IMG/VR virus record: IMGVR_UViG_3300030329_001671
Coordinates: 24,487 to 88,486 of that record
DNA: 64,000 bases
Direction: 5' to 3' (one strand)
Origin: a virus
Shown here: positions 17,117-31,559 of the stretch, piece by piece
Layout: each line of letters begins with the position of its first letter
Position numbering within the stretch: position 1 is the stretch's first letter
Notes under the pieces: generated by a model
The model's database searches: none
The model's input: the letters and a program-made list of their open reading frames with translations, nothing else
Told to the model about the DNA's origin: nothing
Position numbers and translations under genes: made by a program

Positions 17117-17596
17117 ATGCCGGCAGGAGAGCAGTTACGTCAAAGAACGCAGCAGTTTGCAGTAAAGTACGATGAAGCTAGCCATATATGGAGAATTCTC
17201 GATACATGGAATAAATCTTTAGAAGCTTTACAGGCAACCGATGAAATTCCAGACGATCATCCCGCTATGGTGCTATTACCCATGGCAGGTATGATTGAGG
17301 TTGTAAGGGTAGCGGAGGAGTTAAATTTACTCGAACATATGTTTGGGGGAGTTTCCGAGGATGAGTTGGCGGAGGTGGAGGAGCGATTAGCCGCTTCTGA
17401 AGCCACAGTAAAAACTTTGAAAGAGCAATTAGACTTAGCCAGAACGTCTAAGCCTGATTCTAGTGAACCAGAAATTGTAAAGGAAGCATTATCCGATCAA
17501 TCTCAGGTAGCTATGGCAGCTATACACGCTCTTACACAAATAACAGGCCAAAGTCAGATCGACAAGGTGGTAAATGGCAGGACGACTAACCCTTAA
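17117..17596 (+). CDS. Hypothetical protein with coiled coil
   Basis: AAGGAGG RBS; coupled to portal. Confidence 0.65.
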   Translation: MPAGEQLRQRTQQFAVKYDEASHIWRILDTWNKSLEALQATDEIPDDHPAMVLLPMAGMIEVVRVAEELNLLEHMFGGVSEDELAEVEERLAASEATVKTLKEQLDLARTSKPDSSEPEIVKEALSDQSQVAMAAIHALTQITGQSQIDKVVNGRTTNP

Positions 17597-19580
17597 TGAT
17601 TTTGCTCCAGAAGCTGGTCATTTAGCCCAAAAGGAATATGAGCTCAGTAGCCTTCTTAATACTATGGGGCAACAGGCTCTAATAAATAAAAGCGGAGAAA
17701 CTTACAGAAACCCAACTTTTGGGGTAGATCAAGTAGTAAACGTTTGGGTTCAACAACAAGCTGCCTTTAGGCAGCATATGATTCAGGATATCCAGCAGAT
17801 TGCACAATCTGTGGAAGAAGTTAGATCTCCTGTCAACCATATTATTTCAGAAATTTTCCGTCGTGGTGTAACGTGGCAACCAGCGTTTGCCGTTAAATGT
17901 AGTAGTTGTTCCACGGAATATAAAAACAAGCCTGAGGCGTGTACTAATAAGGGTTGTGATTACGAAGGAAGTTCAGAAACTCTCGTAGAACCTGATGCCG
18001 ATCAATACCAAAAACTCAAGTCTTTTATAACTGATTGTAACGTCTTCGACCAAACTCTAGAGGATGTTCTTAGGGAATTTTGGTGGGACGTAAACACTAT
18101 AGACGACGGATTTATTTATTTCGCCAAAGAATATAAAGATTATGGAGAGAAAGTCCGTTCTAAAGTTATTTCCGTGGAACGATTGAATCCGGCTCTTATC
18201 GAGTACGATTTAGATAAATCTACAGGTGTTCCTAAAGCATTACATTATGTTTGTTACATTCACAGGGATGCTGCAGCTTCTGAGGTACCCGAAAACTGTA
18301 ATGCGTGTGGAAAACCGTTAGTTCCTGCTATGTTTACTTACCGATATAGAGGTAAGGAAGTTTATCTCTTAGATTCGGAAGTTCTACACGTATCTAAATT
18401 TATGCCCACCCGAACTTACGGGTGGTCACCAGTTCTAACGCTATTTGATAAAGTCTTAACGATTATCGGTATGGATAAGACTCTTTACCGTTACTTCTTT
18501 GAGCGTAAGATGCCCGCATCCATGATTTTGATTTCTACGGATGATCCGGATAGTTTGAGGGCAGAACGGGAGCGGGTAGAACAAGAAATTCGACAAAACC
18601 CAGAATATATTCCTATGATTGCAGTTAGCAACGAATCTCAACGTGGAAAGGTTGACATGATTCGTTTGTTCCACAATTTGCAAGAAATGGACTATTTACC
18701 TGTTAGACAGGAAATTAGGGAAAGAATTGCAGCTATGTGGGGTGTAACTCCTGCATGGCAGGGTGCGCCTGAAGGATTCGGCGGACTATCGACCCAAACT
18801 CAGCAACTAGTTGTCATGAGCAGAGTGGTTGAGGGCGACCAACGTATTTTCCACGAAAAGGTATTCCCGATTATCTTGGATATGTTTGGAATTACTGACT
18901 GGAAGCTAGAGTTACTCACTCCAGAAGAAAAAGCCGAAGCTACCCAACTTCAGTTCGTACAACAAAAAGTTATGATTGCGAGCCAATTGCTACAAGAAGG
19001 ATATGACGTAAAATTGAAGTCTTTGGACTCTGGAATAATGAGTTTGGACTTTGAAATATCTGGAAAGGGTCTAGGACCTAAAGAGCAGATGGAGATGCAA
19101 CAGCAACAAATGATGGGTGGCGGTATGGAAGGCATGGGAATGAGTATGGAAGGCATGCCTGATGGTATGGGCGACGCTGAACAAGGTATGACTGAACCTC
19201 CAGTTGCTCAAGGGCAACCCGGAATAGGTGGAGCAGGTAGAGACCAGACAGGTCAAATGGATTCTGGTGTTCCCGAAATGCAACCGAACATCCAAAATGC
19301 CTTTAATAGTAATTACAATGGCACAAAAACGATGTTGAAACAAGTTATAGATAGGGGACATATCCCAGAAATACAAGATGTTACTACCGATATGGGTAAA
19401 ATGTGGTTCAAGTCTAGCGGAGATGATTACGTCGCTACGTTTAATAAAACTGGTGATTTGATGGATATCGAACCTGCCCATTTCCCTAAACCCCCAGAAG
19501 ATAGGGGTAAAAACAAGCAAATGAATGCTATATACCAACCAGATAAATTAGACTTGCCGGATGGACTAGATGACCTCTAA
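17574..19580 (+). CDS. Portal protein
   Basis: D...IDDGFIY, EVLH.......YGWSP, YFF...P, EMDY......RE.IAA.WGV.P portal motifs; position after TerL. Confidence 0.88.
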   Translation: MAGRLTLNDFAPEAGHLAQKEYELSSLLNTMGQQALINKSGETYRNPTFGVDQVVNVWVQQQAAFRQHMIQDIQQIAQSVEEVRSPVNHIISEIFRRGVTWQPAFAVKCSSCSTEYKNKPEACTNKGCDYEGSSETLVEPDADQYQKLKSFITDCNVFDQTLEDVLREFWWDVNTIDDGFIYFAKEYKDYGEKVRSKVISVERLNPALIEYDLDKSTGVPKALHYVCYIHRDAAASEVPENCNACGKPLVPAMFTYRYRGKEVYLLDSEVLHVSKFMPTRTYGWSPVLTLFDKVLTIIGMDKTLYRYFFERKMPASMILISTDDPDSLRAERERVEQEIRQNPEYIPMIAVSNESQRGKVDMIRLFHNLQEMDYLPVRQEIRERIAAMWGVTPAWQGAPEGFGGLSTQTQQLVVMSRVVEGDQRIFHEKVFPIILDMFGITDWKLELLTPEEKAEATQLQFVQQKVMIASQLLQEGYDVKLKSLDSGIMSLDFEISGKGLGPKEQMEMQQQQMMGGGMEGMGMSMEGMPDGMGDAEQGMTEPPVAQGQPGIGGAGRDQTGQMDSGVPEMQPNIQNAFNSNYNGTKTMLKQVIDRGHIPEIQDVTTDMGKMWFKSSGDDYVATFNKTGDLMDIEPAHFPKPPEDRGKNKQMNAIYQPDKLDLPDGLDDL

Positions 19581-22197
19581 AAAATTAGAGAAATTTAAGG
19601 CTTTCTTGCAAAAAGAAGGTGGTGGTAACGGTGGAGGCGGCTCTGGCGGTGATGGTGGTGGCGGTCTTGCGGGAACAGTTTTTACGGTAGAATCTTCAGG
19701 ATTTGTTCCTACTTATGGTGGGGGTAAAAGAAAAAAGCCTAAGAAACGGGATATCAAGAAAAATACTCCCGAAGGGTTTGCTGAGGAATTGATGCAGTAC
19801 GCCTTAGATAAGTCTATGGAATTAAAGAAAAATATGGCTCTAGGTATAGGACAGAAAGATGTAAGGAACACTGACTTAGGACAGTCTTCTAGAAGTGGAG
19901 ATAATAGGAAATATACTCGCACCGCCGACGTAGGAGGAAAGAATCAGTACAAAGTTCTAAATCCTCCCGAAATTCCCTTTCAACATGACCCAGTTCTGTC
20001 TTGGGAAGATATTTTCCAAAAAGCTGAAGATGAAGATTTACAAATAACGGCTAAAGTTCTTATACGTGATGAGTCAGACAAAGTTTTAATTTTAAAGGAT
20101 AGTTTCTCCGATTGGTGGGATTTACCGGGTGGACATATACACACCGAAGAAACTCCCGAAGAGGGAGCGTTGAGGGAAGTTGAAGAAGAAACGGGAATAA
20201 AGCTAAATGATGTCGATTTGGTTATAGGTCAAGAAGTTGAAACTGATTTAGGGCGTAAACTAGGGCTATTTCTAGTTGCTTATGTACCTTTAGACTCACC
20301 TAAACCCCTCCTTAGCGACGAGCATACGGACTATGCTTGGATAAACATGGAATCTACCTATTACTATAAATTAGGTGTTTGGGGTCCGATTATACGATAT
20401 ATCCTAAGATTTTTATTTGAAGGCGCACATGAGGAAGATAATCCTTATGTGGAAACCCAATCGGCAGCTTTAGAGCGTTTAGATAAAGCTATGGTAATCC
20501 ATACAGACGAATCTGGTGATAAAACCGCTTTGGCATCAGATGGAGTGTATTTGGTCAAAAGTGATGGAAAAGTGTTCAAACAAGAACCGTGGCCAGCATC
20601 GGAAGAAACTGGAGACTTGTTGAATATAGAGGAGGATGATTTTCTCAACCATAGTTGGGTGTTGGAAAAGCGAAAAGATACTCCGATTCCTATGAAATTT
20701 TACCGGCCGATTTCAGAAGAGCATGACCAAATTGTAAATCGCCCATTTAAGCTATTGAGAGGCTCCCCTAAAGATTATGTTGTAGCCAAACCTCCCGCTC
20801 CCAACTCTGGAGAAGTTTTAGAAGATTTAGAACAAATTCAAGCGGATTTTAGAGCTTTATCTGAGAAAGGTCAGGAGCGGTTAAAAGAACAATTAGATAT
20901 GGCTGATGAAGAGATACTAAAACCTTTTTTGAGGTACGGCTTAGACCACGGGTTAGATTTAGGTGATTATGTGCCTATGTTGGAGGATTTTCTATCCGAC
21001 ATAAACACTATAGTTATGAGTAAAAAATATCAAATAAATTACCCTAGACCGTGGCAGTATGAAATGGATGAGCCTTACTTCATTTATGATGTTGTATCTG
21101 CCCTGCGACCGAGTATAGACACTCCTTCGTACCCATCAGGACACTCTACCCAATCTTTGGTGGTAGCTGAGATATTAGGAAACTTATTTCCGGGACACGA
21201 AGAAAACTTCCAAGATATTGCGGAAAGAATAGGTGTCAATAGAGTAAAAGCTGGTTGGCACTTTCCGATGGATCACACCGCCGGCCAGAAATTGGCATTA
21301 GAAATTATAGATTCTTTACCTAATGCTATTCAACTAGAAAAAGATAGAGTTTATCTGAAACCCGGTCAAGAGGCTCCTGAGGGAGTTAAAGTCGAAACGG
21401 GACCAGCGGGGGGTCGTTATTATGATGCCGAGGTTGATCCGGGACTAACGGAACTTGAAGGTCACGAAGAGCGTTCTGAGGCATCTTTCTACGGAGCAGT
21501 AGAGGGTAGAGAACCGGGGATGACAGATAACTTCAATAAAGACTTCAATGAAGCTTATTTAGATATATCTAATCGAATCGTAGGAGAAATAGGTTTAGAC
21601 TCAGAGGAATATAGGAATAAATTACAGGATGCTTTTTCAGAACCAGATGAAAATTTTGTGGATCACTCCGATATGCAATTTTTAGGAGATTGGTCAGGAA
21701 GTAGTGTAGAAAACAGTTCAATAAGTATGCAATACGCCGCCGCAGAACTGTTCGGAAGTTCTTCGGAAAAATTAGATAACGTTAACTTTTTTAAAGCTAC
21801 CTACCCAGAAGAAACTGTAGAAGACTATAAGTATCCACAAGCTATAAATAGCGCAGGAACGTATCTGAAAGATTTGTATTCCAATACTCAAAGGAGTTTT
21901 GAAGAACGGGGTATTAAGGAAATTACTTTGTACCGAGGTGTTAACACTAAACGACAAGTTCCCGTGAAATCGGGAGAAAGAGTAGCCATGAAGGATTTAC
22001 CACTATCTTCTTGGACTGCCCATCCGCACGAGTCCACGTATTTTGGAGATGTAGTGGTATCTAGAACATTTGATGTAAAGGATATTATAGCCTCTTGCGT
22101 GGACAAGCTTCCACTTGGGGAGTTTGAATTTATAGTCCACACCCCAGATGTGGGGGTAGAGTCTACAGTAGAATACGTGTCGCATACAGGCATGTAG
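19570..22197 (+). CDS. Multidomain polyvalent head-associated protein: Nudix + PAP2-like phosphatase + tag + ADP-ribosyltransferase-like domain
   Basis: Nudix box GGHIHTEETPEEGALREVEEETGI; PAP2 K.....PRP, PSYPSGH, R...G.HF..D; C-terminal LYRG...LSSWT...EFEF (R-S-E pattern). Confidence 0.85.
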   Translation: MTSKKLEKFKAFLQKEGGGNGGGGSGGDGGGGLAGTVFTVESSGFVPTYGGGKRKKPKKRDIKKNTPEGFAEELMQYALDKSMELKKNMALGIGQKDVRNTDLGQSSRSGDNRKYTRTADVGGKNQYKVLNPPEIPFQHDPVLSWEDIFQKAEDEDLQITAKVLIRDESDKVLILKDSFSDWWDLPGGHIHTEETPEEGALREVEEETGIKLNDVDLVIGQEVETDLGRKLGLFLVAYVPLDSPKPLLSDEHTDYAWINMESTYYYKLGVWGPIIRYILRFLFEGAHEEDNPYVETQSAALERLDKAMVIHTDESGDKTALASDGVYLVKSDGKVFKQEPWPASEETGDLLNIEEDDFLNHSWVLEKRKDTPIPMKFYRPISEEHDQIVNRPFKLLRGSPKDYVVAKPPAPNSGEVLEDLEQIQADFRALSEKGQERLKEQLDMADEEILKPFLRYGLDHGLDLGDYVPMLEDFLSDINTIVMSKKYQINYPRPWQYEMDEPYFIYDVVSALRPSIDTPSYPSGHSTQSLVVAEILGNLFPGHEENFQDIAERIGVNRVKAGWHFPMDHTAGQKLALEIIDSLPNAIQLEKDRVYLKPGQEAPEGVKVETGPAGGRYYDAEVDPGLTELEGHEERSEASFYGAVEGREPGMTDNFNKDFNEAYLDISNRIVGEIGLDSEEYRNKLQDAFSEPDENFVDHSDMQFLGDWSGSSVENSSISMQYAAAELFGSSSEKLDNVNFFKATYPEETVEDYKYPQAINSAGTYLKDLYSNTQRSFEERGIKEITLYRGVNTKRQVPVKSGERVAMKDLPLSSWTAHPHESTYFGDVVVSRTFDVKDIIASCVDKLPLGEFEFIVHTPDVGVESTVEYVSHTGM

Positions 22198-22205
22198 GAT
22201 GTGTT

Positions 22206-22943
22206 ATGATGAAAACTATTGACATAACGGAACTTGACCCTAGTAATTTGAATTGGTTACGTGCGGGTAAGAAGTCAAAAGAAGCAGAATTGCAGAAAGG
22301 AAGGGTTTACTTGAAACCCGGACAACAAGCCCCTGAGAACGTACAAGTTCAAACTGGTCCTAGAGGCGGTCAGTTTTATGATGAGGCTCCTAGCCAATCA
22401 ACTGCTGATGAGACTGACCCCATCACTATACAACCGGAAGGTTCTATTTCTCCAGAGAATCAGGCGTTGATTGATGACCTAAAGGAAATTGGACAAATAA
22501 ATCCAATTGATCCCGATGAAATGATTATTGATAACGTTAAAGTTGGACCGATAAAGGTTTGGAATGATAGAGTTAACCTTACTGGACTTACCTCCCTTGA
22601 TCCAAGGTCGGGGGCAGGATCAAAAGCATTGAAACGTATAACCGATTTAGCCGATAAACATGGAGTCACGTTAGAAGATGCGGCTGTCCCGTTCAGAGGG
22701 GCTGATGGGGAAATGATTCCAAAAGATAAGTTACGGGCGTTTTATTTACGACATGGGTATCAATTTTCAGATCCCAATGATCCAGACAGAATGGTACGTT
22801 TTCCCCAACCAACGGGACCCATTAGAATAAATATAGGCGGTGATGATAGTTGGACATCAGTACCAAGAGATCAAGAATACGGAGAAGACGAAGAAGATGA
22901 AGGGTATAATCCTTTTGCAGGAACAAATGTTTCGATTAGATAA
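22206..22943 (+). CDS. Tagged GNAT-like acetyltransferase
   Basis: Shared tag, then PRSGAGSKAL...ADKHGVTL...L.AFY.RHGY (acetyl-CoA binding motif and FY..G[FY]). Confidence 0.75.
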   Translation: MMKTIDITELDPSNLNWLRAGKKSKEAELQKGRVYLKPGQQAPENVQVQTGPRGGQFYDEAPSQSTADETDPITIQPEGSISPENQALIDDLKEIGQINPIDPDEMIIDNVKVGPIKVWNDRVNLTGLTSLDPRSGAGSKALKRITDLADKHGVTLEDAAVPFRGADGEMIPKDKLRAFYLRHGYQFSDPNDPDRMVRFPQPTGPIRINIGGDDSWTSVPRDQEYGEDEEDEGYNPFAGTNVSIR

Positions 22944-22958
22944 GTAAGCGAGGTTACT

Positions 22959-24215
22959 GTGCTTATTATAGAACAAGAAAAGCGGGACTGGTTACTAGAA
23001 CAAGTTAATTCTACACCACATCCCAATTGGACAGAAATAGCCCGTCAGTACGAAGAAGTATTTGGCGAAAGGCGACACCGATCCACCATACGTAGGTGGG
23101 TTTTGACTTTGATGCGGGACGAGCATATCCTTGAACATTATGGGGAAGACGGGTTGCTCAGAGATGAGGTTGGTACCCGCAGAGCTAAACTAGAAAGCGC
23201 ACATTTTAAGAAGCGTGTTAGCGACCTAGTAAATAAACAACTTTCCCACGAAAATATTGTAGATGTTATAAAAATGTCTGCTCAGGCGTTACCACCTAAT
23301 AAGATACGTCTGAGAGAAACGCAGAAAACTACTTCGGAAAGCCCCATCGTAGCAGTAGCTCCACTTACGGATTTACATATTGGGGAATTCGTAGACACCC
23401 AGCAAATGGGAGGTCTTAATGCTTACGATTTTGAAATTTTTACTAATAGACTCTTTGGTTGGACTAATCAAATTAGTGATCTTTGCTCTTTACGGCGTTC
23501 CTTTGTTTCGGTACCAATCCTTAAAGTGCCAATGCTCGGAGACATGGTGTCAGGAGAAATCCACGAAGAATTAGTTCGTACTAATTTAGATAATGTCATC
23601 ATGACCATGGCTCGTGGTGCTTACATGGTATCCCAATCTCTCATGACGCTTGCTAGCCAATTTGAAGAGGTTCATGTGGATTCTGTGGTGGGTAATCACC
23701 AACGTCTAAGGAAAGAAATTTACTACAAAGATAAATATGTGGGGTGGGATTATTTATTCTACCAATGGGTGGCTGCTTTCTGTAAGGATCAGCCCAACAT
23801 TAAATTTACTATTCCGAAAACTTTTTATCAGTTGATAGACGTAGCCGGATTTAATGTTCTCATACATCACGGGGATGCTATGAGAGGGTCATCCATGCAA
23901 CAAAAAGTACACTCTCTACGACAGGCTTTACAACCACAAGGGAAAGCTTTCCAATACATGTTTATGGGACACTACCACCATGTAGAGGAACATGATATAG
24001 GTACAGGTACAGCATTGATGTGTGGATGTATGAAGGGAACTGACGAGTATGCTATGCTGCAGGGATTAGCTTCTAGAGCAACACATGTTCTAACGTTCTT
24101 CCATCCCAAGTATGGATTGATTAGTAGGGATACTATTTACTTAGAAAACTTTGATGACGAGAGGCATGGTTTTAATGATTATGTCCCAGAGATTTGGGCG
24201 GAGCTTATTGAATAG
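22959..24215 (+). CDS. Calcineurin-like metallophosphoesterase with N-terminal HTH
   Basis: TDLH, GDMV, GNH, HHGD, GHYH motifs. Confidence 0.88.
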   Translation: MLIIEQEKRDWLLEQVNSTPHPNWTEIARQYEEVFGERRHRSTIRRWVLTLMRDEHILEHYGEDGLLRDEVGTRRAKLESAHFKKRVSDLVNKQLSHENIVDVIKMSAQALPPNKIRLRETQKTTSESPIVAVAPLTDLHIGEFVDTQQMGGLNAYDFEIFTNRLFGWTNQISDLCSLRRSFVSVPILKVPMLGDMVSGEIHEELVRTNLDNVIMTMARGAYMVSQSLMTLASQFEEVHVDSVVGNHQRLRKEIYYKDKYVGWDYLFYQWVAAFCKDQPNIKFTIPKTFYQLIDVAGFNVLIHHGDAMRGSSMQQKVHSLRQALQPQGKAFQYMFMGHYHHVEEHDIGTGTALMCGCMKGTDEYAMLQGLASRATHVLTFFHPKYGLISRDTIYLENFDDERHGFNDYVPEIWAELIE

Positions 24216-24221
24216 AACCTA

Positions 24222-24254
24222 GTATAATATCATTAGGGAGGATTTTTCCTAATG
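24222..24254 (+). promoter_or_regulatory. Putative late promoter GTATAATA plus RBS/start-sequestering hairpin
   Basis: GTATAATA 24222-24229; CATTAGGGA (24231-39) pairs with TTCCTAATG (24246-54), covering the SD and ATG. Confidence 0.55.
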
Positions 24255-24842
24255 CCAGTTGACCGAGCTACTCATAGACGAATTAAAGATAAGATATTAA
24301 AAGCTATCACTAAAGGCGTTCAGGTCAACGGTAAGCATGTGTTCCAAAGATCACAACAATATGTTCCTGTACAAACAGGACAACTAAAAAAGAGTGGAGG
24401 TTTTTCAGCTAAAAAAGATGGTTGGATTTTAAACTATAGAGCCCCTTATGCTGCTGATGTACACAGTAGACCTTATAGTTCTAATGAAGAGGAGCAACCT
24501 CAAACTGTGGGGGCGCATATAAGGCGAGCCTTTAGGCGTAAGGATGGAACTCAGGTAAAAGCTACTAAAGTAAAAGGATACTACCTAACTAAATCGGGAA
24601 AACGTTTACGTCGTGATCCTAGACAAGGAGGAAAGTATCTTACTAGGGCAGTAGACACGGAGATGCCAGATTTGACTACTAATGTATTCAACGCATTACA
24701 GAGACAATTTGGCAGAGTAAAGTTATCATCTTCAACGGCTGGAAAACCAGCATCTTCTGGTGGAAATCCTACATCAAAGTCTGGTGGAAAACCTCAGACA
24801 CAGGGATCGAAACATAAGAATAAGTTTGGAGGAAAGAGATAG
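24252..24842 (+). CDS. HK97 gp10-like/minor capsid (neck) protein
   Basis: SQQYVPVQTGQLKKSG, Y.APYA..VH, KYL.RA. Confidence 0.75.
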   Translation: MPVDRATHRRIKDKILKAITKGVQVNGKHVFQRSQQYVPVQTGQLKKSGGFSAKKDGWILNYRAPYAADVHSRPYSSNEEEQPQTVGAHIRRAFRRKDGTQVKATKVKGYYLTKSGKRLRRDPRQGGKYLTRAVDTEMPDLTTNVFNALQRQFGRVKLSSSTAGKPASSGGNPTSKSGGKPQTQGSKHKNKFGGKR

Positions 24843-25081
24843 TGCCGAGCAAACAGGAAATTCAAAAAATTATAGATAATATTACACCTTTTCAAGAATA
24901 CATCATGCGGGGGGCATCTCGGATGGTAGGACAGACTCTAGACCAACTAGAGTCTTCTATGCCAGAAGGGAAACAACTAGAAAAACTGAAGCAGTTGATA
25001 GAGGATATTTTGTACGAATACAGAGATAGTCTATTAAGGGCAACAGTTGAGTTAGATATACAGCAGAAGACAAAAAAGTAA
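24842..25081 (+). CDS. Small helical protein, paralog of 31640..31858
   Basis: RMVG..L..LE.S.P......LK..I pattern shared with 31640..31858. Confidence 0.7.
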   Translation: MPSKQEIQKIIDNITPFQEYIMRGASRMVGQTLDQLESSMPEGKQLEKLKQLIEDILYEYRDSLLRATVELDIQQKTKK

Positions 25082-25094
25082 TTAGGGGAAGTTC

Positions 25095-25718
25095 ATGTAT
25101 CAGTCTGTAAGAAGGATAGACGGAGAAGTAGTTAAGCAAGATGAAATGCAAACCCTGTATGAAGGGTTGGCTACCAAACATCGAAATTTGTTTTTGTATG
25201 GAACTATAGTAGGACCAATCGACAGGATAGATAATTGGAATTCTGGATTTACAGCAGACTCAATTATTTCTCTAAGTTTAGAGGATTCTAAGGCACCTAT
25301 TATTTTACATATAGATTCACCGGGGGGTTCGGTTAGGGACGGATTGAGGTTGATAGATATAATGAAGACAGTAGATGCTCCAGTTTGGACTGTGGGTTCT
25401 AATTGTTATAGTATGGGGGCTATGATACTAGCGGCAGGTGAAGCGGGTCACAGGTACGTATACCCACATGCTCACACTATGTTGCATTTACCTTCGGGTA
25501 CAACTAGAGGAGATGCAAAGCAAGTAGAAATCCAAAGTAAAGAAATGCAAAAAGTCAAGAAAACTTTGGTCGGATTAATAAAGGAATGGGGAGTGTCTAA
25601 GGAAGAACGCACTATAATGAAAGATATAGACAGAGAATTTTACTTAGATGCGTCGGAAACAATCGAGTATGGTTTAGCAGATAAATTCATTACTCAGAAT
25701 ACTTTTATTGGGAAGTAA
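25095..25718 (+). CDS. clpP: ClpP-family protease
   Basis: IDSPGG, YSMGA (catalytic Ser), MLHLP (His), DRE (Asp), EYGLAD. Confidence 0.93.
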   Translation: MYQSVRRIDGEVVKQDEMQTLYEGLATKHRNLFLYGTIVGPIDRIDNWNSGFTADSIISLSLEDSKAPIILHIDSPGGSVRDGLRLIDIMKTVDAPVWTVGSNCYSMGAMILAAGEAGHRYVYPHAHTMLHLPSGTTRGDAKQVEIQSKEMQKVKKTLVGLIKEWGVSKEERTIMKDIDREFYLDASETIEYGLADKFITQNTFIGK

Positions 25719-25730
25719 CCCAGAGGTTTA

Positions 25731-27362
25731 ATGAACGAATTCACCTTACTAAGGGTGTGTAAAGACATCAAGGGTCATAGAGTTACTAATGATGAAATTA
25801 AGCATCTAGTAAAGGATGTTTCTACTAGAACTTTATCTTTCCCTAAGTCTAACGATTTTAAATCTTCTACAGCCTTTTTGGTAGATACTGCTTCGCAGTT
25901 CTCGCTAGATAAGTCTTTTTTCACTAGAGCATACCCTAAAGGTGATTATTCGTATTTTTCTAAGGCTATGCAAAATTTCATTGAAGACGATGAAATTTTA
26001 GAAAAAGAGGATGTGGTAACCCAAAAATCTGAGTACTTAGACTTTTCCGATACAGAAACCGGAGAACTTCTGAACTTATCTAAAGCTGCTCCCTCAGGCG
26101 GAATGACTACTAAAGGTAGTATTAAAGACGCTATTGATGAGTATGAACGTTTATATAAAGCAGGGTTCTCAACCGCCGCAGAAATTTTAACGCTATCTCG
26201 TTATTACCCTAACAATAAAGCATATGCCCAACTTGCGGGTGATATTTTAGAGAAAAATGAACCTCTAGTGGTGGGTGGTCCCGCTTCAGTTGAAATGGTA
26301 GACCGAGAGGGACACCTTATTACCATGGATGCTATGGATAGAGCATTTAGAAAGTTTATGGGTAATATCAGAACCCGTAACGCCATGGTTCTACACTCGG
26401 ACGTACAAGTTGGGTGGGCGTTACCAGCGTACATAAATAAGTCGGGTCAAATATTTAAAAGTGGTGTGTATGAGAACCACCTGTTTTTCATTACAGAAAT
26501 GCGTAACGACACCAAAATTGCCGACAGAGTAAAAGAGCAGGTGAAAGAGGGGCGTATACGAAGTTACTCCATCGCAGGCTCCGCCCTTGAAACCGACTCA
26601 GAGTTGGTTCAGGAAAAAGGTAAGGACAGAATTATAACTAAGGTAACTGAGTTAGAGTTAGCCGAAGTTACGGTCTGTGAAAAAGGGGTAAACCAAGGAG
26701 CTCATTTTAACTTACTAAAAGCCCATGGTTCAGAAAATTCGGGAACTTGTATAGATGGCAGTTGCCTAATAAAGCTAGAAAAGGAACAAGCTGGACCGGG
26801 TTCAGGTGTTCCCCATGGGGCGGATACTGGTGGAAACTATAACAAGTTTTATGGCGGATTCGACCCCGACAAAGATTTACCAAACGGATGTTACCGGTAC
26901 GCAGGTAAAACGGTAGAAGAATATTCTCTATCTATGGATAATAATACTCAAGGGAGCATGTCCCCCGGATTAGAGTCGTACTCTGAGTATAATGAAGATA
27001 AGGTAGAAGAAATTACTGAATATGATGAAAAGTTAGAAAAACGCCGACAGGAGGTTTTTAAAATGGTTACGGGAAAGCGTTCCTCTTTGGAACAACTGAA
27101 AAGTTTCATAAAAGCTGAGGTTGGTCCAGAAGGGACTTTGACCGAAATTTTTGACACTCCAGAGGAAATTTTAGAGCGAACTGAAGAAATTCGAGAAAAA
27201 CATGGCTGGCCGAAAGAAAAGGAAGCCCTAAACGAATTACACGATATGAAAAACAATCCTGAATCTAGAGGAACCACTCAACGTGGTACTGCTGTCACTA
27301 CGGCAGGACAGGATTACCAAACTTTAGATATCACTAAATCTGAAGACTGCGGGTGTAGTTAA
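25731..27362 (+). CDS. Prohead (HK97-like) maturation protease with long N- and C-terminal extensions
   Basis: VDREGH.I, LHSD.QVG, SYSIAG, ELAEVTVC..GVNQ.A. Confidence 0.88.
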   Translation: MNEFTLLRVCKDIKGHRVTNDEIKHLVKDVSTRTLSFPKSNDFKSSTAFLVDTASQFSLDKSFFTRAYPKGDYSYFSKAMQNFIEDDEILEKEDVVTQKSEYLDFSDTETGELLNLSKAAPSGGMTTKGSIKDAIDEYERLYKAGFSTAAEILTLSRYYPNNKAYAQLAGDILEKNEPLVVGGPASVEMVDREGHLITMDAMDRAFRKFMGNIRTRNAMVLHSDVQVGWALPAYINKSGQIFKSGVYENHLFFITEMRNDTKIADRVKEQVKEGRIRSYSIAGSALETDSELVQEKGKDRIITKVTELELAEVTVCEKGVNQGAHFNLLKAHGSENSGTCIDGSCLIKLEKEQAGPGSGVPHGADTGGNYNKFYGGFDPDKDLPNGCYRYAGKTVEEYSLSMDNNTQGSMSPGLESYSEYNEDKVEEITEYDEKLEKRRQEVFKMVTGKRSSLEQLKSFIKAEVGPEGTLTEIFDTPEEILERTEEIREKHGWPKEKEALNELHDMKNNPESRGTTQRGTAVTTAGQDYQTLDITKSEDCGCS

Positions 27363-28090
27363 TGTCTAAGTATTTACTGTCCAAACTATTTCCTAATTTC
27401 GTAAAAAAGACTCAAACTCAACATTTGGCTAAAGGTCCCTTTGGTGAAGGTTTGGACGCTGCGGAATTGGATAAAGCTAGAGTTTACCTTAAGCCCGGTG
27501 AACAAGCTCCTGAGGGAGCGCAGGTACAAACGGGTCCTAAGGGTGGACAATACTACGACGACATGGGTGGTGGAGCCGTCCCTACAGATGAAGCTCAACC
27601 ATACCCGGCTGAAGCGTATGACCAAGCTATGGATGCTGAAGTAGATGCTTTAAGTGGAATTCCACAAGAAACGCTTTCGCCTCCCGACGTATCCGAAGCT
27701 ACATTTGATGGACAAGGTAATATACAGTTGCCGGGTAGTGACCCCTATCCTATTAGCGAACTTATTGGTTCAGACACGGAAGCTGTAAATGCCCTTGGGG
27801 AACGATATCAACAAGAAGGTGGAGCTAATCCGGCCGAATTACTTTCTGGTTATGACGGACCTCTGACTCAGGATGGTATACACGAGTACCTAAGCGATAT
27901 AGTTCAATATGATGACGCCTTCGTATCTGACAATGATTATCATAATGCTATAGATTTTGCTAGCTGGGTTGGTGAACAATCAGGATTATCCGAAACTCAA
28001 AAAATGGTTAAGATGATGCAGAAACACAATATAGATAACAAAAGGCGTGATCCAATAGTATTGTCCAACAAGGGCGGTACACATAGGTAA
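27362..28090 (+). CDS. Tagged acidic putative head cargo protein
   Basis: LDK-ARVYLKPGEQAPEGAQVQTGPKGGQYYD followed by a very acidic domain. Confidence 0.75.
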   Translation: MSKYLLSKLFPNFVKKTQTQHLAKGPFGEGLDAAELDKARVYLKPGEQAPEGAQVQTGPKGGQYYDDMGGGAVPTDEAQPYPAEAYDQAMDAEVDALSGIPQETLSPPDVSEATFDGQGNIQLPGSDPYPISELIGSDTEAVNALGERYQQEGGANPAELLSGYDGPLTQDGIHEYLSDIVQYDDAFVSDNDYHNAIDFASWVGEQSGLSETQKMVKMMQKHNIDNKRRDPIVLSNKGGTHR

Positions 28091-28102
28091 TAGGAGGTAA
28101 CT

Positions 28103-28573
28103 ATGCTCTCATCTCTTTTTATGGGTACACTTCTGTTACAGAAGGAGAAACCCCATAAGTATATCAGTCGAACTATGGGACCTAATGGTAAGTGGCAATA
28201 TGACTATGGTAACGATGTAGTCTCACATGGCGCAGACGAGAATGCCTCTAGTAGAGATCAAGCTTGGCATCACCAAGATCAAGCAAAGATGCACCAAGAG
28301 AAGGTAGATTCTCACCAAAGGCATCTCGATAGATGGGAGCCAGAAGGTCAAGCACCTGACTACTTGACCCCAATTGAGGAGTCTCAGGCTAAACGAGATG
28401 CTCATCAGGCAGCAGTAGATCACCACACAGCGGAAGCACAGCCTCATGAAGAGGCGTGGCAGCAAGAGCGACAAGCTAATATTGACGCTCTCGCAGCTAG
28501 GAGGGCTGCCCGAAGTCAAATGACTCCACATGAGAGAAATATGGAACAGGGTCGCATCTACGGATGGGACTAA
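28103..28573 (+). CDS. Putative head cargo protein, His/Ala/Gln-rich
   Basis: AGGAGG RBS; LQK followed by HKYISRTMGPNGKWQYDY motif. Confidence 0.7.
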   Translation: MLSSLFMGTLLLQKEKPHKYISRTMGPNGKWQYDYGNDVVSHGADENASSRDQAWHHQDQAKMHQEKVDSHQRHLDRWEPEGQAPDYLTPIEESQAKRDAHQAAVDHHTAEAQPHEEAWQQERQANIDALAARRAARSQMTPHERNMEQGRIYGWD

Positions 28574-29194: not shown

Positions 29195-29346
29195 GTATAA
29201 TAACAATAGACAAGAGAAAGCAGTTGCTTTGGCATCTGCTTTTTTATTTGTTATTTCGCACAATTACGAGGGCATGCGGCGAGACCACCCTCCAAAGCGA
29301 TAGAAAGGTTATGGAAAAAGTTTTTATTCTCTTTGGAGGAATAATA
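29195..29346 (+). promoter_or_regulatory. Putative late promoter and structured leader of the scaffold-capsid operon
   Basis: GTATAATAACAATAGA, hairpin + T-tract 29218-29249, anti-SD CCTCCAAAG 29289-97 pairing with CTTTGGAGG 29331-39. Confidence 0.55.
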
Positions 29347-30174
29347 ATGACGGATCAAAACGATTTGCTAAAGGGTAACACCCTTGCGCTTGAGGCTATT
29401 GCCGAGCAGCTTCAGAAGTCTAACGACTTGTCAGCTAAACTCGCAGCCCGATTCGCAAAAGAAGACGAAGAAGCAGAAGAGAAAGAGCATGCAGAGGCCG
29501 AAGAGCTTGCTAAGGCTGCATTTACTAAAGAAATTGTAAAGGCAGTTGGTAACGCTTTTGGTCTTGCTAAAGGTGACGAGGCTCCTTCAGGAGAATCTCC
29601 TCAAGGTATGCCAGTTGACGACTACAACCCAAAGCCAGTTTCTAGCCCTGCCACTCCGCCAGCTGCGGACACAGAGGAAGACGCTGACCCTGACACTGAC
29701 ACTGAGACTGTTCAGCAGCCTATTGCTGCTGCTGCAGAAATTAAGTTGGCAGATGAGGGCGCAGACGAGTATCCTCAGGTAGAGGATCCCGGCGTTGTAG
29801 AAGATGAAGAAGTTAACATGGCGTACATGAAGTCTCAATTGACTTCAATGGCTAAGGCTATCGCTGACCTTGCTAAGTCTCAGGCTTCTACCGACTCTGC
29901 GGTTGCTTCGGCAGTCGAGAACCAGATGCGGAAGATTGGCTGGAAAGAGGCTGAGGTTGGTGGACGACCACAGAGCCGGATTCTTCCAGATGTAGGCGAC
30001 CCACTTCAGAAAGCAGCAGAAATTGGTGAACAGGTTGCCGACGGTAACTTCGACCCTGAAGCTGTTGTAGACCAACTTACCAAAATGAGTTACGCTGACA
30101 TGGCAGAAATGCAGGTTAGCATGGCTGGACAGGGCGACTCTCTAACGGGTATCCTTTCTCAGCCCTCAAAGTAA
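29347..30174 (+). CDS. Capsid scaffold protein
   Basis: Acidic, helical, directly before the MCP; GGAGG RBS before ATG 29347; about 12 hydrophobic-x-K sites. Confidence 0.8.
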   Translation: MTDQNDLLKGNTLALEAIAEQLQKSNDLSAKLAARFAKEDEEAEEKEHAEAEELAKAAFTKEIVKAVGNAFGLAKGDEAPSGESPQGMPVDDYNPKPVSSPATPPAADTEEDADPDTDTETVQQPIAAAAEIKLADEGADEYPQVEDPGVVEDEEVNMAYMKSQLTSMAKAIADLAKSQASTDSAVASAVENQMRKIGWKEAEVGGRPQSRILPDVGDPLQKAAEIGEQVADGNFDPEAVVDQLTKMSYADMAEMQVSMAGQGDSLTGILSQPSK

Positions 30175-30194: not shown

Positions 30195-31559
30195 ATGGCT
30201 ACTAATCCATCACTATTTCAGTACTTCAGTCAGGCGCAACGTGGCCGTGGCTTGCTTGAGAACGTCTTCGGACCGGATTTCATGCAGAAGCAGTCTTACT
30301 TTACGGTTGACTCCGCTACTGGAATTTTCAATGCTACATACGGACGCAAAGTGTGGCATGCTCTAAACAACCAGACTCGATTCTGGAATGCCCTTCCCCG
30401 TGTGGTTTGGGGCAATAGCGTTGGTTGGCGTGTACGAACCGACCGTGGTTCTGGGCGATCTCGTCCGATCACGGAAACGGGAACTCTCCCGACCGTTGAC
30501 ATCTCGAATATCGAGAATGTCCAGTCTCTACCGAGAATCGTGGGTACAACCTTCGGTGCAGCTGTGAAGGCAATCTTCACCGCCAACCTTGAGGGTGGTG
30601 CTGGCGACATTCTTGCGATGGAGCATGAGAACGCAGAAATTGACCACGTAAAGGAAATCAACGAAGAACTCCTTGCTGGTTCTGCTTACTTGACTAGCGC
30701 AGGTGCAACTACCACTTTCACGGTTCCAGCTTCCGTAGCTAAGAACTTTAAAGTTGGTGACGCAGTTTCGCAGTACGACAACTCAGCAACCGACTGGGAT
30801 CGCACAAGTGGTTCCGCAGTTTCCGCTGTCAACACCTCAACTGGTGTTGTAACGGTTGCTACTGGCACAACTTTCGCAGACAGCGACGTTGCTGCGATTT
30901 ACAGTCGTGCAGGTATGACCTCAATTGATGATATCGTCTGGGAAGACGGTGCAGCAGTTGGTGGTGCATCCCACGCTAACTACACCGCTAACGGTGGTGT
31001 ACGAGCATACAACCTAACGTATGCTGACCGTACCGCTGGTACGTGGAATGCTGGTGCTTCGGTCCAGTATAACTCTGGTACAGGCCGTGACCTGTCGTTG
31101 AACCTTTTGGACAACGCAATCATGAACATTCGTAAGAATGGTGGTGAGCCTAACCTCATCCTCATGGGTCATGACCAGTACTTCAAACTTGAGCGACTCT
31201 TGAACTCTCAACAGAGGTACTTGGGTCAGGAAGAGTTTGAAGTTGGTGTCGGTGACGAGCGAACATTCCCCGGTACTCGAACAGGACTTGTCCTCTCGAC
31301 CTACCTTGGTATTCCGATTCTTACTGACAACGACGTTCCTGTTTCAGTTTCATCTGCTGATGCAGTTCTTGGTCAGAACGTTTACGTTCTTGACACGGAC
31401 TCCATCGAGATTGCTGTAGCACAGCCTACTCAGTATGTTGAAAACCGTGACTACTTCGCAGCTAACGCTCTTGTAGTTCGTGGTCTTCTCTACACGATGG
31501 CTGAACTTCGAGCTCGCAACATTTGGCACACCGCCAAGATTGCTGACTTGAACACATAG
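30195..31559 (+). CDS. Major capsid protein
   Basis: 454 aa after protease and scaffold; high-expression codon bias; HK97-like GG.PNLIL....Y and YLGIPIL motifs; followed by a terminator. Confidence 0.9.
   Translation: MATNPSLFQYFSQAQRGRGLLENVFGPDFMQKQSYFTVDSATGIFNATYGRKVWHALNNQTRFWNALPRVVWGNSVGWRVRTDRGSGRSRPITETGTLPTVDISNIENVQSLPRIVGTTFGAAVKAIFTANLEGGAGDILAMEHENAEIDHVKEINEELLAGSAYLTSAGATTTFTVPASVAKNFKVGDAVSQYDNSATDWDRTSGSAVSAVNTSTGVVTVATGTTFADSDVAAIYSRAGMTSIDDIVWEDGAAVGGASHANYTANGGVRAYNLTYADRTAGTWNAGASVQYNSGTGRDLSLNLLDNAIMNIRKNGGEPNLILMGHDQYFKLERLLNSQQRYLGQEEFEVGVGDERTFPGTRTGLVLSTYLGIPILTDNDVPVSVSSADAVLGQNVYVLDTDSIEIAVAQPTQYVENRDYFAANALVVRGLLYTMAELRARNIWHTAKIADLNT

What the first reader, a model, noticed from the sequence alone, without database searches (positions are those of the whole stretch)
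19570..28573. Shared 31-aa 'address tag' on unrelated effector proteins inside the head module: candidate capsid-cargo delivery system
Seen: three otherwise unrelated ORFs carry the same peptide. They are LEKDRVYLKPGQEAPEGVKVETGPAGGRYYD (21334-21426), LQKGRVYLKPGQQAPENVQVQTGPRGGQFYD (22290-22382) and LDKARVYLKPGEQAPEGAQVQTGPKGGQYYD (27467-27559). The codons differ, so conservation is at the protein level. Each tag starts with L-x-K and is followed by a different payload: an ART-like domain, a GNAT-like domain and an acidic domain. ORF 28103 has a variant (LQK-EKPHKYISRTMGPNGKWQYDY). All lie between portal and scaffold. Known analogies are the T4 internal-protein capsid-targeting sequence, T4 Alt and MuF-fused/polyvalent proteins. 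Inference: the tag becomes a free N-terminus after prohead-protease cleavage and acts as a modular packaging/ejection signal to which payloads are swapped. I do not recognise the tag as a characterised family.
Basis: partly seen in the sequence, partly recalled or inferred. Interest (0 to 1): 0.85.

Follow-up and report, generated by a model that had tools for sequence, protein, structure and literature searches.

The report
Conserved header tag on phage cargo
Three unrelated proteins encoded among this marine phage's head genes carry the same 33-residue folded mini-module, which heads swappable enzyme units in hundreds of uncultured bacterial and archaeal viruses and most likely marks proteins that are loaded into the capsid and trimmed there, though no experiment shows this.

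Summary
Three exact copies of the peptide sit at the stated coordinates, and they are the only ones in the 88-kb virus. They are conserved at protein level (dN 0.16-0.20, synonymous sites saturated). The fourth 'variant' in ORF 28103 is not supported.

The tag is a widespread module with no family model. An exhaustive profile search found 415 protein clusters, with one to four copies per protein. It stands in front of unrelated payloads: ADP-ribosyltransferase, GNAT, ParB, zeta toxin, RelA/SpoT, HNH, HD, topoisomerase IB and SAM lyase. It also follows portal and prohead-protease domains directly.

Close relatives keep the same leader and tag but swap the payload. The tag travels with one lineage of head genes, shared with the haloarchaeal virus HVTV-1, the only cultured group that carries it. 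AlphaFold predicts a three-stranded mini-sheet between flexible linkers.

A hydrophobic-x-Lys-small motif abuts half of all tags. In this phage the motif is about 4-6 times enriched in the protease and scaffold-candidate proteins, which points to a protease cut site. Packaging, cutting and ejection remain untested.

I found no Pfam, NCBIfam or PDB entry and no paper. This scan had already noted the same GPRGG module in another genome (e1-5739025).

The parts
17574..19580 (+). Portal protein; homologous to HVTV-1 gp112
   Evidence: Pfam Phage_portal E 1.4e-9 and phrog_18178 E 1.3e-46. phmmer to the HVTV-1 portal ORF gives E 1e-48.
19570..22197 (+). Polyvalent protein: NUDIX (158-263), PAP2 (485-572), tag (589-621), ADP-ribosyltransferase-like C-terminus
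   Evidence: Pfam NUDIX E 2e-16 and PAP2 E 2e-6. DRAT E 0.005 on the C-terminal part. Arg, Ser-x-Thr and Glu-x-Glu are invariant in orthologues. One orthologue (L006) adds an ART-PolyVal domain.
21334..21432 (+). Tag copy A (internal; preceded by LEK-D)
   Evidence: Tag profile 60 bits.
22206..22943 (+). Leader + tag + linker + GNAT-like payload
   Evidence: Relatives carry a ParB-like payload, or ParB-like plus GNAT-like, behind the same leader and tag (weak ParB hit).
22290..22385 (+). Tag copy B (preceded by LQK-G)
   Evidence: Tag profile 65 bits.
25731..27362 (+). S78-type prohead protease with long extensions (phrog_23555 type); candidate processing enzyme
   Evidence: Pfam Peptidase_S78 E 3.5e-5 and phrog_23555 E 1.9e-15. 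Homologous to HVTV-1 gp119. Carries 10 hydrophobic-x-K-[AGS] sites against 2.3 expected.
27362..28090 (+). Leader + tag + acidic, low-complexity payload; orthologues are 140-830 aa long
27467..27562 (+). Tag copy C (preceded by LDK-A)
   Evidence: Tag profile 69 bits.
29308..30174 (+). Scaffold candidate (acidic; position before the capsid gene). Its identity was not tested with a family model.
   Evidence: Position and composition only. Carries 8 hydrophobic-x-K-[AGS] sites against 1.3 expected, 0 of 500 shuffles.
30195..31559 (+). Major capsid protein (SU10-like); homologous to HVTV-1 gp120
   Evidence: Pfam SU10_MCP E 5e-8 and phrog_24667 E 1.7e-15. phmmer to HVTV-1 MCP gives E 2.6e-19.
28103..28573 (+). 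ORF with the claimed 'variant' tag: not a member
   Evidence: The tag profile gives about 0 bits with filters off. No orthologue in the fetched relatives.

Best explanation
The 31-aa peptide is the local form of a widespread 33-residue folded mini-module that has no entry in the domain libraries I searched. Its consensus is h-x-K-[AGS]-[RK]-[VI]-Y-[LIV]-x-P-G-E-x-[AP]-P-x-G-V-x-V-x-x-G-P-R-G-G-x-Y-Y-[ED]. It serves as the header of cargo cassettes in one lineage of tailed-virus head modules: an HVTV-1-like portal, a phrog_23555-type S78 prohead protease and an SU10-like capsid protein. Shown: each cassette is [optional leader or preceding domain] - [often a hydrophobic-x-Lys-small site] - [three-stranded mini-sheet] - [flexible linker] - [payload]. 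Cassettes occur alone, in runs of neighbouring genes, or strung together behind portal, MuF or protease domains. Payloads are exchanged behind a constant header. Inferred: tagged proteins are built into the procapsid because the mini-module binds a conserved internal component of this head lineage, either the protease-scaffold core or the inner capsid or portal surface. The S78 protease then cuts at the Lys site or in the linkers, so that separate payloads lie in the head, many with the mini-module at their new N-terminus, and leave with the DNA at infection. In this phage the cargo would be a NUDIX-PAP2 unit, an ADP-ribosyltransferase, a GNAT-like acetyltransferase and an acidic protein.
For: The tag is real and under selection. 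It is widespread: 415 clusters at E<=1e-3 and 74 at E<=1e-10 among 1.84 billion representatives, with 1-4 copies per protein. It has header polarity: the first tag lies within 40 aa of the N-terminus in 50 of 137 proteins, the last tag lies within 60 aa of the C-terminus in only 6 of 137, and the median spacing is 281 aa. The 30 aa after a tag are more disorder-prone than the 30 before (0.644 against 0.568, p 1e-11). Some proteins start directly with the tag. Payloads are diverse. The payload is swapped behind an identical leader and tag. Physical links to the capsid interior: 23 of 137 tag proteins contain the protease domain, with the tag just after it in most of the 17 proteins where that domain is N-terminal, and 7 contain a portal domain followed by tags, directly in several. 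Portal-tag-MuF fusions also occur. Head-gene context holds in 9 of 12 IMG/VR loci with true tags and in HVTV-1, HCTV-1 and HCTV-5. The window's portal, protease and capsid protein are homologous to those of HVTV-1. AlphaFold gives three strands with core pLDDT 82-86; in a protease fusion the tag is an independent bead between disordered linkers. Cut-site evidence. Tags within one protein resemble each other more than tags of other proteins do (0.63 against 0.50 identity, 0 of 1000 permutations).
Against: No virion proteome, N-terminal sequence or packaging assay was available for any carrier; the HVTV-1 structural-protein paper is not held. In portal fusions an address is redundant, which favours a processing or post-entry role there. 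Half of the tags lack the full Lys motif, and tag A here has LEK-D. Enrichment of L-x-K-A-type motifs in a helical scaffold could partly reflect helix periodicity rather than protease sites, although shifted and substituted control motifs are flat. One IMG/VR record has the protease 18 kb from its tag genes, and one 165-kb record showed no protease match. The binding partner is unknown, and no complex prediction could be run.
Confidence: 0.5

Rival explanations
1. The module is only a processing element. It is a docking site plus cut site for the S78 prohead protease that separates domains of polyproteins and frees payloads from portal or protease carriers. Entry into the capsid would be provided by something else: fusion to portal, MuF or protease, or the short N-terminal leaders.
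For: The tag sits at nearly every domain joint and directly after protease and portal domains, where no address is needed. The h-x-K-[AGS] motif abuts half of the tags and is enriched in the protease and scaffold proteins. Conserved N-terminal leaders precede the tag in several families (I-D-I-x-x-L-D-x-x-N-x-N-W-L; L-L-S-E-L-F-P-N-F-V-K-K) and could be the real address. The tag co-occurs with phrog_23555-type proteases.
Against: A cut site needs only a few residues, yet 33 residues fold into a conserved mini-domain. Some proteins begin directly with the tag and so have nothing upstream to cut off. Half of the tags lack the motif. Single-payload proteins with an N-terminal tag have no carrier domain.
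Confidence: 0.2
2. The module acts after injection. It would be a small adaptor that binds a host or viral target, such as DNA ends, RNA polymerase or the membrane, and so positions each enzyme in the infected cell. This matches what is proposed for the PBCV basic adaptor domain, which has the same G-P-R-G-G-x-Y-Y hairpin.
For: A profile-profile match of the C-terminal hairpin to PBCV_basic_adap-like sequences gives 96% probability over 19 columns. Those sequences reach Pfam PF08789 at E 0.004. The payloads are host-directed enzymes that would gain from localisation.
Against: The hhalign match is partly circular, because the compared sequences were retrieved with the motif itself. The tags give no Pfam hit to PF08789 even at E<=10. 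Tag charge is near neutral and is acidic in haloarchaeal copies, which fits nucleic-acid binding poorly. It does not explain tags between protease and scaffold-like regions or the strict tie to one head-gene lineage.
Confidence: 0.12
3. The module is a passive structural spacer or recombination joint. It would be a stable bead that separates domains and provides conserved sequence for cassette shuffling, with no specific partner.
For: It has a beads-on-a-string appearance between disordered linkers. Payload exchange occurs exactly at the tag. The conserved residues are mostly Gly, Pro and aromatic residues, that is, structural ones.
Against: The three copies in this genome share no long identical DNA (at most 13 nt), so they are not recombination substrates now. 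Strong purifying selection on 33 residues across bacterial and archaeal viruses, a strict N-terminal polarity and restriction to head-gene blocks are not expected of a neutral spacer.
Confidence: 0.07

Closest known systems
Capsid targeting sequence (CTS) of phage T4 internal proteins IPI-III and Alt, removed by the prohead protease gp21 (from established knowledge; not tested here)
   Same: A short N-terminal element shared by unrelated proteins that are encapsidated and injected. It is coupled to a prohead-protease cut and is portable in principle.
   Different: I know of no sequence relation. The T4 CTS is about 10-20 residues, not a folded beta mini-domain, and is cut after L/I-x-E by a different protease family. 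It is not repeated inside polyproteins and is limited to T4-like phages. Here the tag would stay on the payload if the cut is at the Lys site.
Phage-type polyvalent proteins and portal- or MuF-fused effectors (Iyer, Burroughs, Anand, de Souza, Aravind 2017, PMC5512222)
   Same: Multi-enzyme proteins encoded beside head genes, with ART, NUDIX, ParB, RelA/SpoT, zeta-toxin-like and HNH payloads and with fusions to portal and MuF. One orthologue here carries Pfam ART-PolyVal.
   Different: That work proposes processing by zincin-like metallopeptidases and lists 40 LPD domains. My term searches of the paper found no description of a repeated header, and no Pfam LPD model matches the tag. No such metallopeptidase turned up in the Pfam tally; the associated protease is S78-type.
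PBCV-specific basic adaptor domain (Pfam PF08789)
   Same: Shares the strand - G-P-R-G-G - x-Y-Y hairpin. hhalign gives 96% probability over 19 columns to PBCV-adaptor-like bacterial sequences.
   Different: The third strand lies on the other side of the hairpin. The tags give no Pfam hit to PF08789. That domain is known from chlorovirus kinases and small bacterial proteins, not from head modules, and its function is also unknown.
C-terminal capsid-targeting tail of the HK97 maturation protease, and encapsulin cargo-loading peptides (from established knowledge)
   Same: Short portable elements that load proteins into HK97-fold shells. The tag follows the protease domain in 17 fusion proteins.
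   Different: Those signals are C-terminal and unstructured. This tag has N-terminal polarity and a predicted fold.
PHROG phrog_24083 (unknown function; profile length close to that of HVTV-1 gp115 'zeta toxin')
   Same: All three window tags match positions 12-57 of this profile (E 5e-6 to 1e-4).
   Different: Only the N-terminal header matches; the rest of the 1233-position family is absent here. The PHROG carries no annotation.

Membership tests
GPRGG header module (defined here; also noted in e1-5739025) | A 33-residue match to the profile built from 267 instances, with near-invariant Tyr, Pro-x-Gly, Gly-x-x-Gly-Gly and Tyr-Tyr | tested here: met
   The window copies score 60-69 bits. Alignment A5 gives the invariant and near-invariant columns.
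GPRGG header module (defined here; also noted in e1-5739025) | Stands N-terminal to a payload and is followed by a flexible linker | tested here: met
Phage-type polyvalent proteins (Iyer et al. 2017) | Two or more unrelated effector domains in one polypeptide of a phage | tested here: met
   ORF 19570-22197 has NUDIX + PAP2 + ART-like domains. The other two tagged ORFs have a single payload each.
Phage-type polyvalent proteins (Iyer et al. 2017) | Encoded next to virion head genes or fused to portal or MuF | tested here: met
Phage-type polyvalent proteins (Iyer et al. 2017) | Delivered into the host with the DNA | not testable with these tools
   Needs virion proteomics or an injection assay.
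T4-type capsid targeting sequence | N-terminal position on encapsidated, unrelated proteins | tested here: inconclusive
   The N-terminal polarity is met. Encapsidation was not tested. Many copies are internal.
T4-type capsid targeting sequence | Removed by the prohead protease at a defined site | not testable with these tools
   Indirect evidence only: h-x-K-[AGS] enrichment.
PBCV_basic_adap (PF08789) | Score at or above the Pfam gathering threshold (20.4 bits) | tested here: not met
   No PF08789 hit for the three tag segments at E<=10. Only the hairpin aligns by hhalign.
MuF-fused effector or toxin proteins | Phage_Mu_F (PF04233) domain in the same protein | tested here: not met
   There is no MuF hit in any window head ORF. 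MuF occurs in some tag proteins elsewhere (P0091, P0126) and next to tag genes in L026, HVTV-1 and HCTV-1.

The most novel reading that the evidence does not exclude
A single portable, folded 33-residue domain is the capsid-loading (and perhaps ejection-leader) signal of a head-module lineage shared by bacterial and archaeal tailed viruses. Injected effectors could then be read from sequence alone, as anything behind the tag, and foreign proteins could be loaded into capsids by adding the tag.
Probability: 0.4. Interest if true: 0.85.

Novelty: new variant of a known kind. Interest (0 to 1): 0.7.

Why it matters
Which proteins a phage carries in its head and injects is usually learned only from virion proteomics of cultured phages. 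A sequence-recognisable header would allow cataloguing of injected anti-host enzymes across uncultured viruses. Here these include ADP-ribosyltransferases, acetyltransferases, alarmone synthetases, zeta toxins, nucleases, topoisomerase IB and SAM lyase. It would also link bacterial and archaeal virus head modules functionally, and it could give a compact tag for loading proteins into capsids. A cultured carrier exists (HVTV-1/HCTV-1 on Haloarcula), so the idea can be tested directly.

Tried and rejected
- megablast and tblastn of the head region, the acidic protein, the capsid protein and a two-tag protein against 50,697 phage records gave nothing. Only weak tag hits to haloviruses appeared, and these were then confirmed with the tag profile.
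- In genome contigs that pattern's 44 matches are about the number I estimated for chance alone. Only two loci (L044, L058) hold true tags, so nothing can be said about prophages.
- PDB sequence searches with both tag profiles found nothing.
- VIA-align of the 47-residue model against 48,161 chains gave Z<=2.8, which is uninformative for so small a fold.
- A PDB profile search with the ART-like C-terminus gave only E 0.2 hits.
- A full-text search for 'GPRGG' found no relevant paper.
- The HVTV-1 structural-protein paper (J Virol 2013) is not held.
- Two searches for published S78 cut-site specificity found nothing usable. The HK97 Lys103/Ser104 cut is my recollection only.
- I first read L-x-K as part of strand 1. 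The model starts the strand at position -3 and the residues before it have low confidence, so the site more likely lies in a flexible stretch.
- Three top hits (P0045, P0134, P0171) are translated repeat arrays and were excluded.
Full report
**1. Observation**

They lie in three + strand ORFs:
- 19570-22197, 875 aa, tag at residues 589-619.
- 22206-22943, 245 aa, tag at residues 29-59.
- 27362-28090, 242 aa, tag at residues 36-66.

A six-frame motif scan of the window and a profile search of the whole virus record find no further copy. That record is 88,486 bp and complete by CheckV's estimate; the window is its bases 24487-88486.

The DNA copies are 68-71% identical, and the longest identical run is 13 nt. 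Of the 22-24 codon pairs that encode the same residue, 12-13 use different codons. dN is 0.16-0.20 while dS is saturated. These are therefore old copies held by selection on the protein, not recent duplications or gene conversion.

The 'variant' in ORF 28103 scores about 0 bits against the tag profile with all filters off. I drop it.

**2. Surroundings**

The region is a head module:
- Portal, 17574-19580.
- The 875-aa protein, with NUDIX (158-263), PAP2 (485-572), the tag, and a C-terminal ADP-ribosyltransferase-like part. The last rests on DRAT E 0.005 and on invariant Arg, Ser-x-Thr and Glu-x-Glu in orthologues.
- The 245-aa protein, whose payload has GNAT neighbours in the ESM Atlas (a lead only).
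- A metallophosphoesterase/exonuclease, 22959-24215.
- A minor head protein.
- A ClpP-like protease, 25095-25718.
- A 543-aa S78 prohead protease of the phrog_23555 type, 25731-27362.
- The 242-aa acidic protein.
- A scaffold candidate.
- An SU10-like capsid protein, 30195-31559.

Elsewhere the window encodes family A DNA polymerase, bacterial-type RecA, a DnaB-like helicase and class II ribonucleotide reductase. The replication genes therefore look bacteriophage-like. The host is unknown.

**3. The tag elsewhere**

A word-index search returned mainly orthologues from marine metagenomes.

The exhaustive profile search over 1.84 billion representatives found 415 proteins at E<=1e-3 and 74 at E<=1e-10. 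Of the best 150, three are translated repeat arrays and were removed. Among the 178 proteins scored for copy number, 100 have one tag, 61 two, 11 three and 3 four.

The consensus is h-x-K-[AGS]-[RK]-[VI]-Y-[LIV]-x-P-G-E-x-[AP]-P-x-G-V-x-V-x-x-G-P-R-G-G-x-Y-Y-[ED].

A Pfam tally over 56 of these proteins gave:
- Peptidase_S78 in 7 and XkdF in 4.
- Topoisomerase IB in 6 and DUF5661 in 6.
- DRAT in 4 and ADPrib_exo_Tox in 3.
- GNAT in 3, Phage_portal in 3, SAM lyase in 3.
- Also rubrerythrin, PI3/4-kinase-like, poly(A) polymerase, DUF192, NUDIX, ATLF, PAP2 and HD.

IMG/VR loci add HNH, HD, RelA_SpoT, zeta toxin with glutaredoxin, and a portal fusion. Many loci hold runs of adjacent tag genes:
- Four ORFs in L022.
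- Three each in L023, L024 and L027.
- Three or four in L026.
- Five in the 7.7-kb contig L044, which is binned with a Pacearchaeota MAG and is probably viral.

**4. Polarity and anatomy**

In 137 non-orthologous proteins:
- The first tag lies within 40 aa of the N-terminus in 50.
- The last tag lies within 60 aa of the C-terminus in only 6.
- 94 have 200-800 aa after the last tag.
- The median spacing between tags is 281 aa.
- The 30 residues after a tag are richer in disorder-promoting residues and poorer in hydrophobic ones than the 30 before (0.644 against 0.568; 0.208 against 0.286; p 1e-11 and 1e-19).

A few proteins begin directly with the tag, for example M-R-I-Y and M-S-K-A-R-V-Y.

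AlphaFold2 on an alignment of 39 diverse tags predicts three short strands with core pLDDT 82-86 and low confidence before position -3. In a protease-tag fusion (P0147) the model shows:
- A confident protease domain, 11-185.
- A disordered stretch, 189-225.
- The tag as a separate three-stranded bead, 227-255.
- A helical domain, 269-345.
- Long low-confidence helices to the C-terminus, which look scaffold-like.

The unit is therefore [flexible] - tag - [flexible linker] - payload.

**5. Payload swapping**

The orthologue alignment of ORF 22206 shows the same leader and tag followed by one of three payloads:
- The GNAT-like domain (the window, P0007, P0008, P0020).
- A ParB-like domain (P0027, P0066).
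- Both in tandem (P0009; a weak ParB hit).

Orthologues of the acidic protein run from 140 to 830 aa behind a constant head. One orthologue of the 875-aa protein adds an ART-PolyVal domain. This is direct evidence that the tag is a constant header on exchangeable cargo.

**6. Link to the capsid interior**

Local iterative searches show:
- 23 of 137 tag proteins contain the phrog_23555-type protease domain. In 17 the protease domain is N-terminal, and in most of these the tag follows within a few tens of residues.
- 7 contain a portal domain followed by tags, directly in several, for example portal to residue 549 and tag from 550.

Portal-tag-MuF and portal-MuF-methyltransferase-tag-payload proteins also exist.

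Of 12 IMG/VR loci with true tags, 9 have a portal, protease, MuF-like or capsid gene fused or adjacent. One has the protease 18 kb away. One 165-kb record gave no protease match. One is a 4.4-kb fragment.

**7. Cultured carriers**

The only carriers in 50,697 phage records are the haloarchaeal siphoviruses HVTV-1, HVTV-2, HCTV-5, HCTV-1 and HCTV-16; those whose taxonomy I read, HVTV-1 and HCTV-1, are Druskaviridae.

In HVTV-1 the tag occurs in three neighbouring genes:
- gp113, a weak match.
- gp115 'zeta toxin', at the N-terminus.
- gp116, with two copies.

These genes lie between the portal gp112 and the protease gp119 and capsid protein gp120. HCTV-1 has the same layout, with a MuF-like gene.

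The window's portal, protease and capsid protein are homologous to HVTV-1 gp112, gp119 and gp120 (E 1e-48, 1e-14 and 3e-19). The tag thus travels with one head-module lineage across bacterial-type and archaeal viruses. Published trees place Druskaviridae capsid and portal proteins inside a mainly marine clade (PMC8651126).

**8. The Lys site**

Across 266 non-redundant tags, the positions relative to the conserved Tyr are:
- -6: L/I/V in 66%.
- -4: K in 79%.
- -3: A/G/S in 60%.
- -2: R/K in 94%.

The full [LIVMF]-x-K-[AGS] motif occurs in 132 of 263 tags.

In this window the motif occurs 33 times in head-module proteins against 14.3 expected from composition-preserving shuffles. In all other ORFs it occurs 37 times against 37.7 expected.

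The excess sits in the S78-protease protein (10 against 2.3) and the scaffold candidate (8 against 1.3), each exceeded by 0 of 500 shuffles. Seven control motifs are mostly flat; the strongest, the unspaced h-K-[AGS], reaches 6 against 2.3 (p 0.018) in the protease protein.

In other phages the prohead protease degrades exactly these two kinds of protein, the protease itself and the scaffold (established knowledge). My inference is that h-x-K|small is this protease's site and that many tags are exposed as new N-termini.

Caveats:
- Tag A here reads LEK-D.
- Half of the tags lack the full motif.
- Helix periodicity could contribute to the enrichment in the scaffold.

**9. What is known**

The tag gives no hit in Pfam, even at E<=10, nor in NCBIfam or PDB sequences. 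It matches only the first 12-57 positions of phrog_24083, a family of unknown function.

My term searches of the polyvalent-protein paper (PMC5512222) found no description of such a header; it proposes metallopeptidase processing.

The hairpin G-P-R-G-G-x-Y-Y recalls the PBCV basic adaptor domain (PF08789). Bacterial proteins with that hairpin reach PF08789 at E 0.004 and align to the tag's second half (hhalign 96% over 19 columns). Those sequences were fetched with the motif itself, so the match is partly circular, and the tags do not reach the Pfam model.

Tags within one protein are more alike than tags between proteins (0.63 against 0.50 identity, 0 of 1000 permutations). This fits a lineage-specific partner or local duplication.

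**10. Earlier notes of this scan**

After my own analysis I found that the scan had already described the same GPRGG module in a 165-kb phage (e1-5739025). It had also described analogous but different header tags in many other phages. My counts and fusions agree with that note. They come from searches of the same public data, so they are not independent biological evidence.

**11. Verdict**

Shown: a real, ancient, widespread header module without a family model, on exchangeable cargo, tied to one head-gene lineage and fused to portal, MuF and protease domains.

Inferred: capsid loading, protease trimming at or near the tag, and co-injection. I put about 0.5 on the combined load-and-cut reading.

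Noticed in passing
window 25095-25718 and 25731-27362: Two different head-type proteases lie side by side: a ClpP-like one (Pfam CLP_protease E 2.5e-39; phrog_94 head maturation protease) and an S78 one with long N- and C-terminal extensions. The ClpP-like gene was not seen next to tag genes in other loci. Why the phage has both is unexplained.
   Followed up: partly
window 22959-24215: A metallophosphoesterase/exonuclease (phrog_284 E 4e-46) sits inside the head module between cargo genes. It has no tag and no hydrophobic-x-K-[AGS] site.
   Followed up: no
window 22206-22290; P0050, P0051, P0066, P0146, P0151, P0160; L044: A second conserved element, an N-terminal leader of the form I-D-I-x-x-L-D-x-x-N-x-[ND]-W-[LVM], precedes the tag by about 12-17 residues in several otherwise unrelated proteins of distant viruses. 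It could be a separate signal.
   Followed up: no
P0046, P0082, P0104, P0110, P0133, P0137: A DUF5661-like helical module (Pfam PF18905) lies 4-14 residues upstream of a tag in 6 of 11 proteins that have it, often as protease - DUF5661 - tag.
   Followed up: partly
L044 (NZCX01000018.1, 7.7 kb) and L058: Contigs binned with Pacearchaeota and Nanoarchaeota MAGs consist of tag genes: five in a row in L044, including zeta toxin + glutaredoxin and two DRAT-like payloads. They are probably viral contigs, which hints at carriers among DPANN-associated viruses.
   Followed up: partly
L048, L050, L051, L053, L069: Small proteins of Cytophagales and Acidobacteriota end in T-G-P-R-G-G-x-Y-Y-E-N-x-x-G-x-[KR]-x-Y-V. 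They hit Pfam PBCV_basic_adap just below threshold (E 0.004), in one case behind a SnoaL/DUF4440 domain.
   Followed up: partly
56 tag proteins (alignment A4): Topoisomerase IB catalytic domains occur in 6 of the 56 tag proteins, and SAM lyase in 3. If the proteins are packaged, these would be virion-borne enzymes.
   Followed up: no
window 29308-30174: The scaffold candidate carries eight hydrophobic-x-K-[AGS] sites in 288 residues, against 1.3 expected. Its identity as a scaffold rests only on position and composition.
   Followed up: partly
P0045, P0134, P0171: Three high-scoring 'hits' of the exhaustive search are translations of tandem DNA repeats, with a partial tag-like word (for example M-R-P-G-Q-Q-A-P-E-S) recurring at regular intervals. 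They are false positives.
   Followed up: yes
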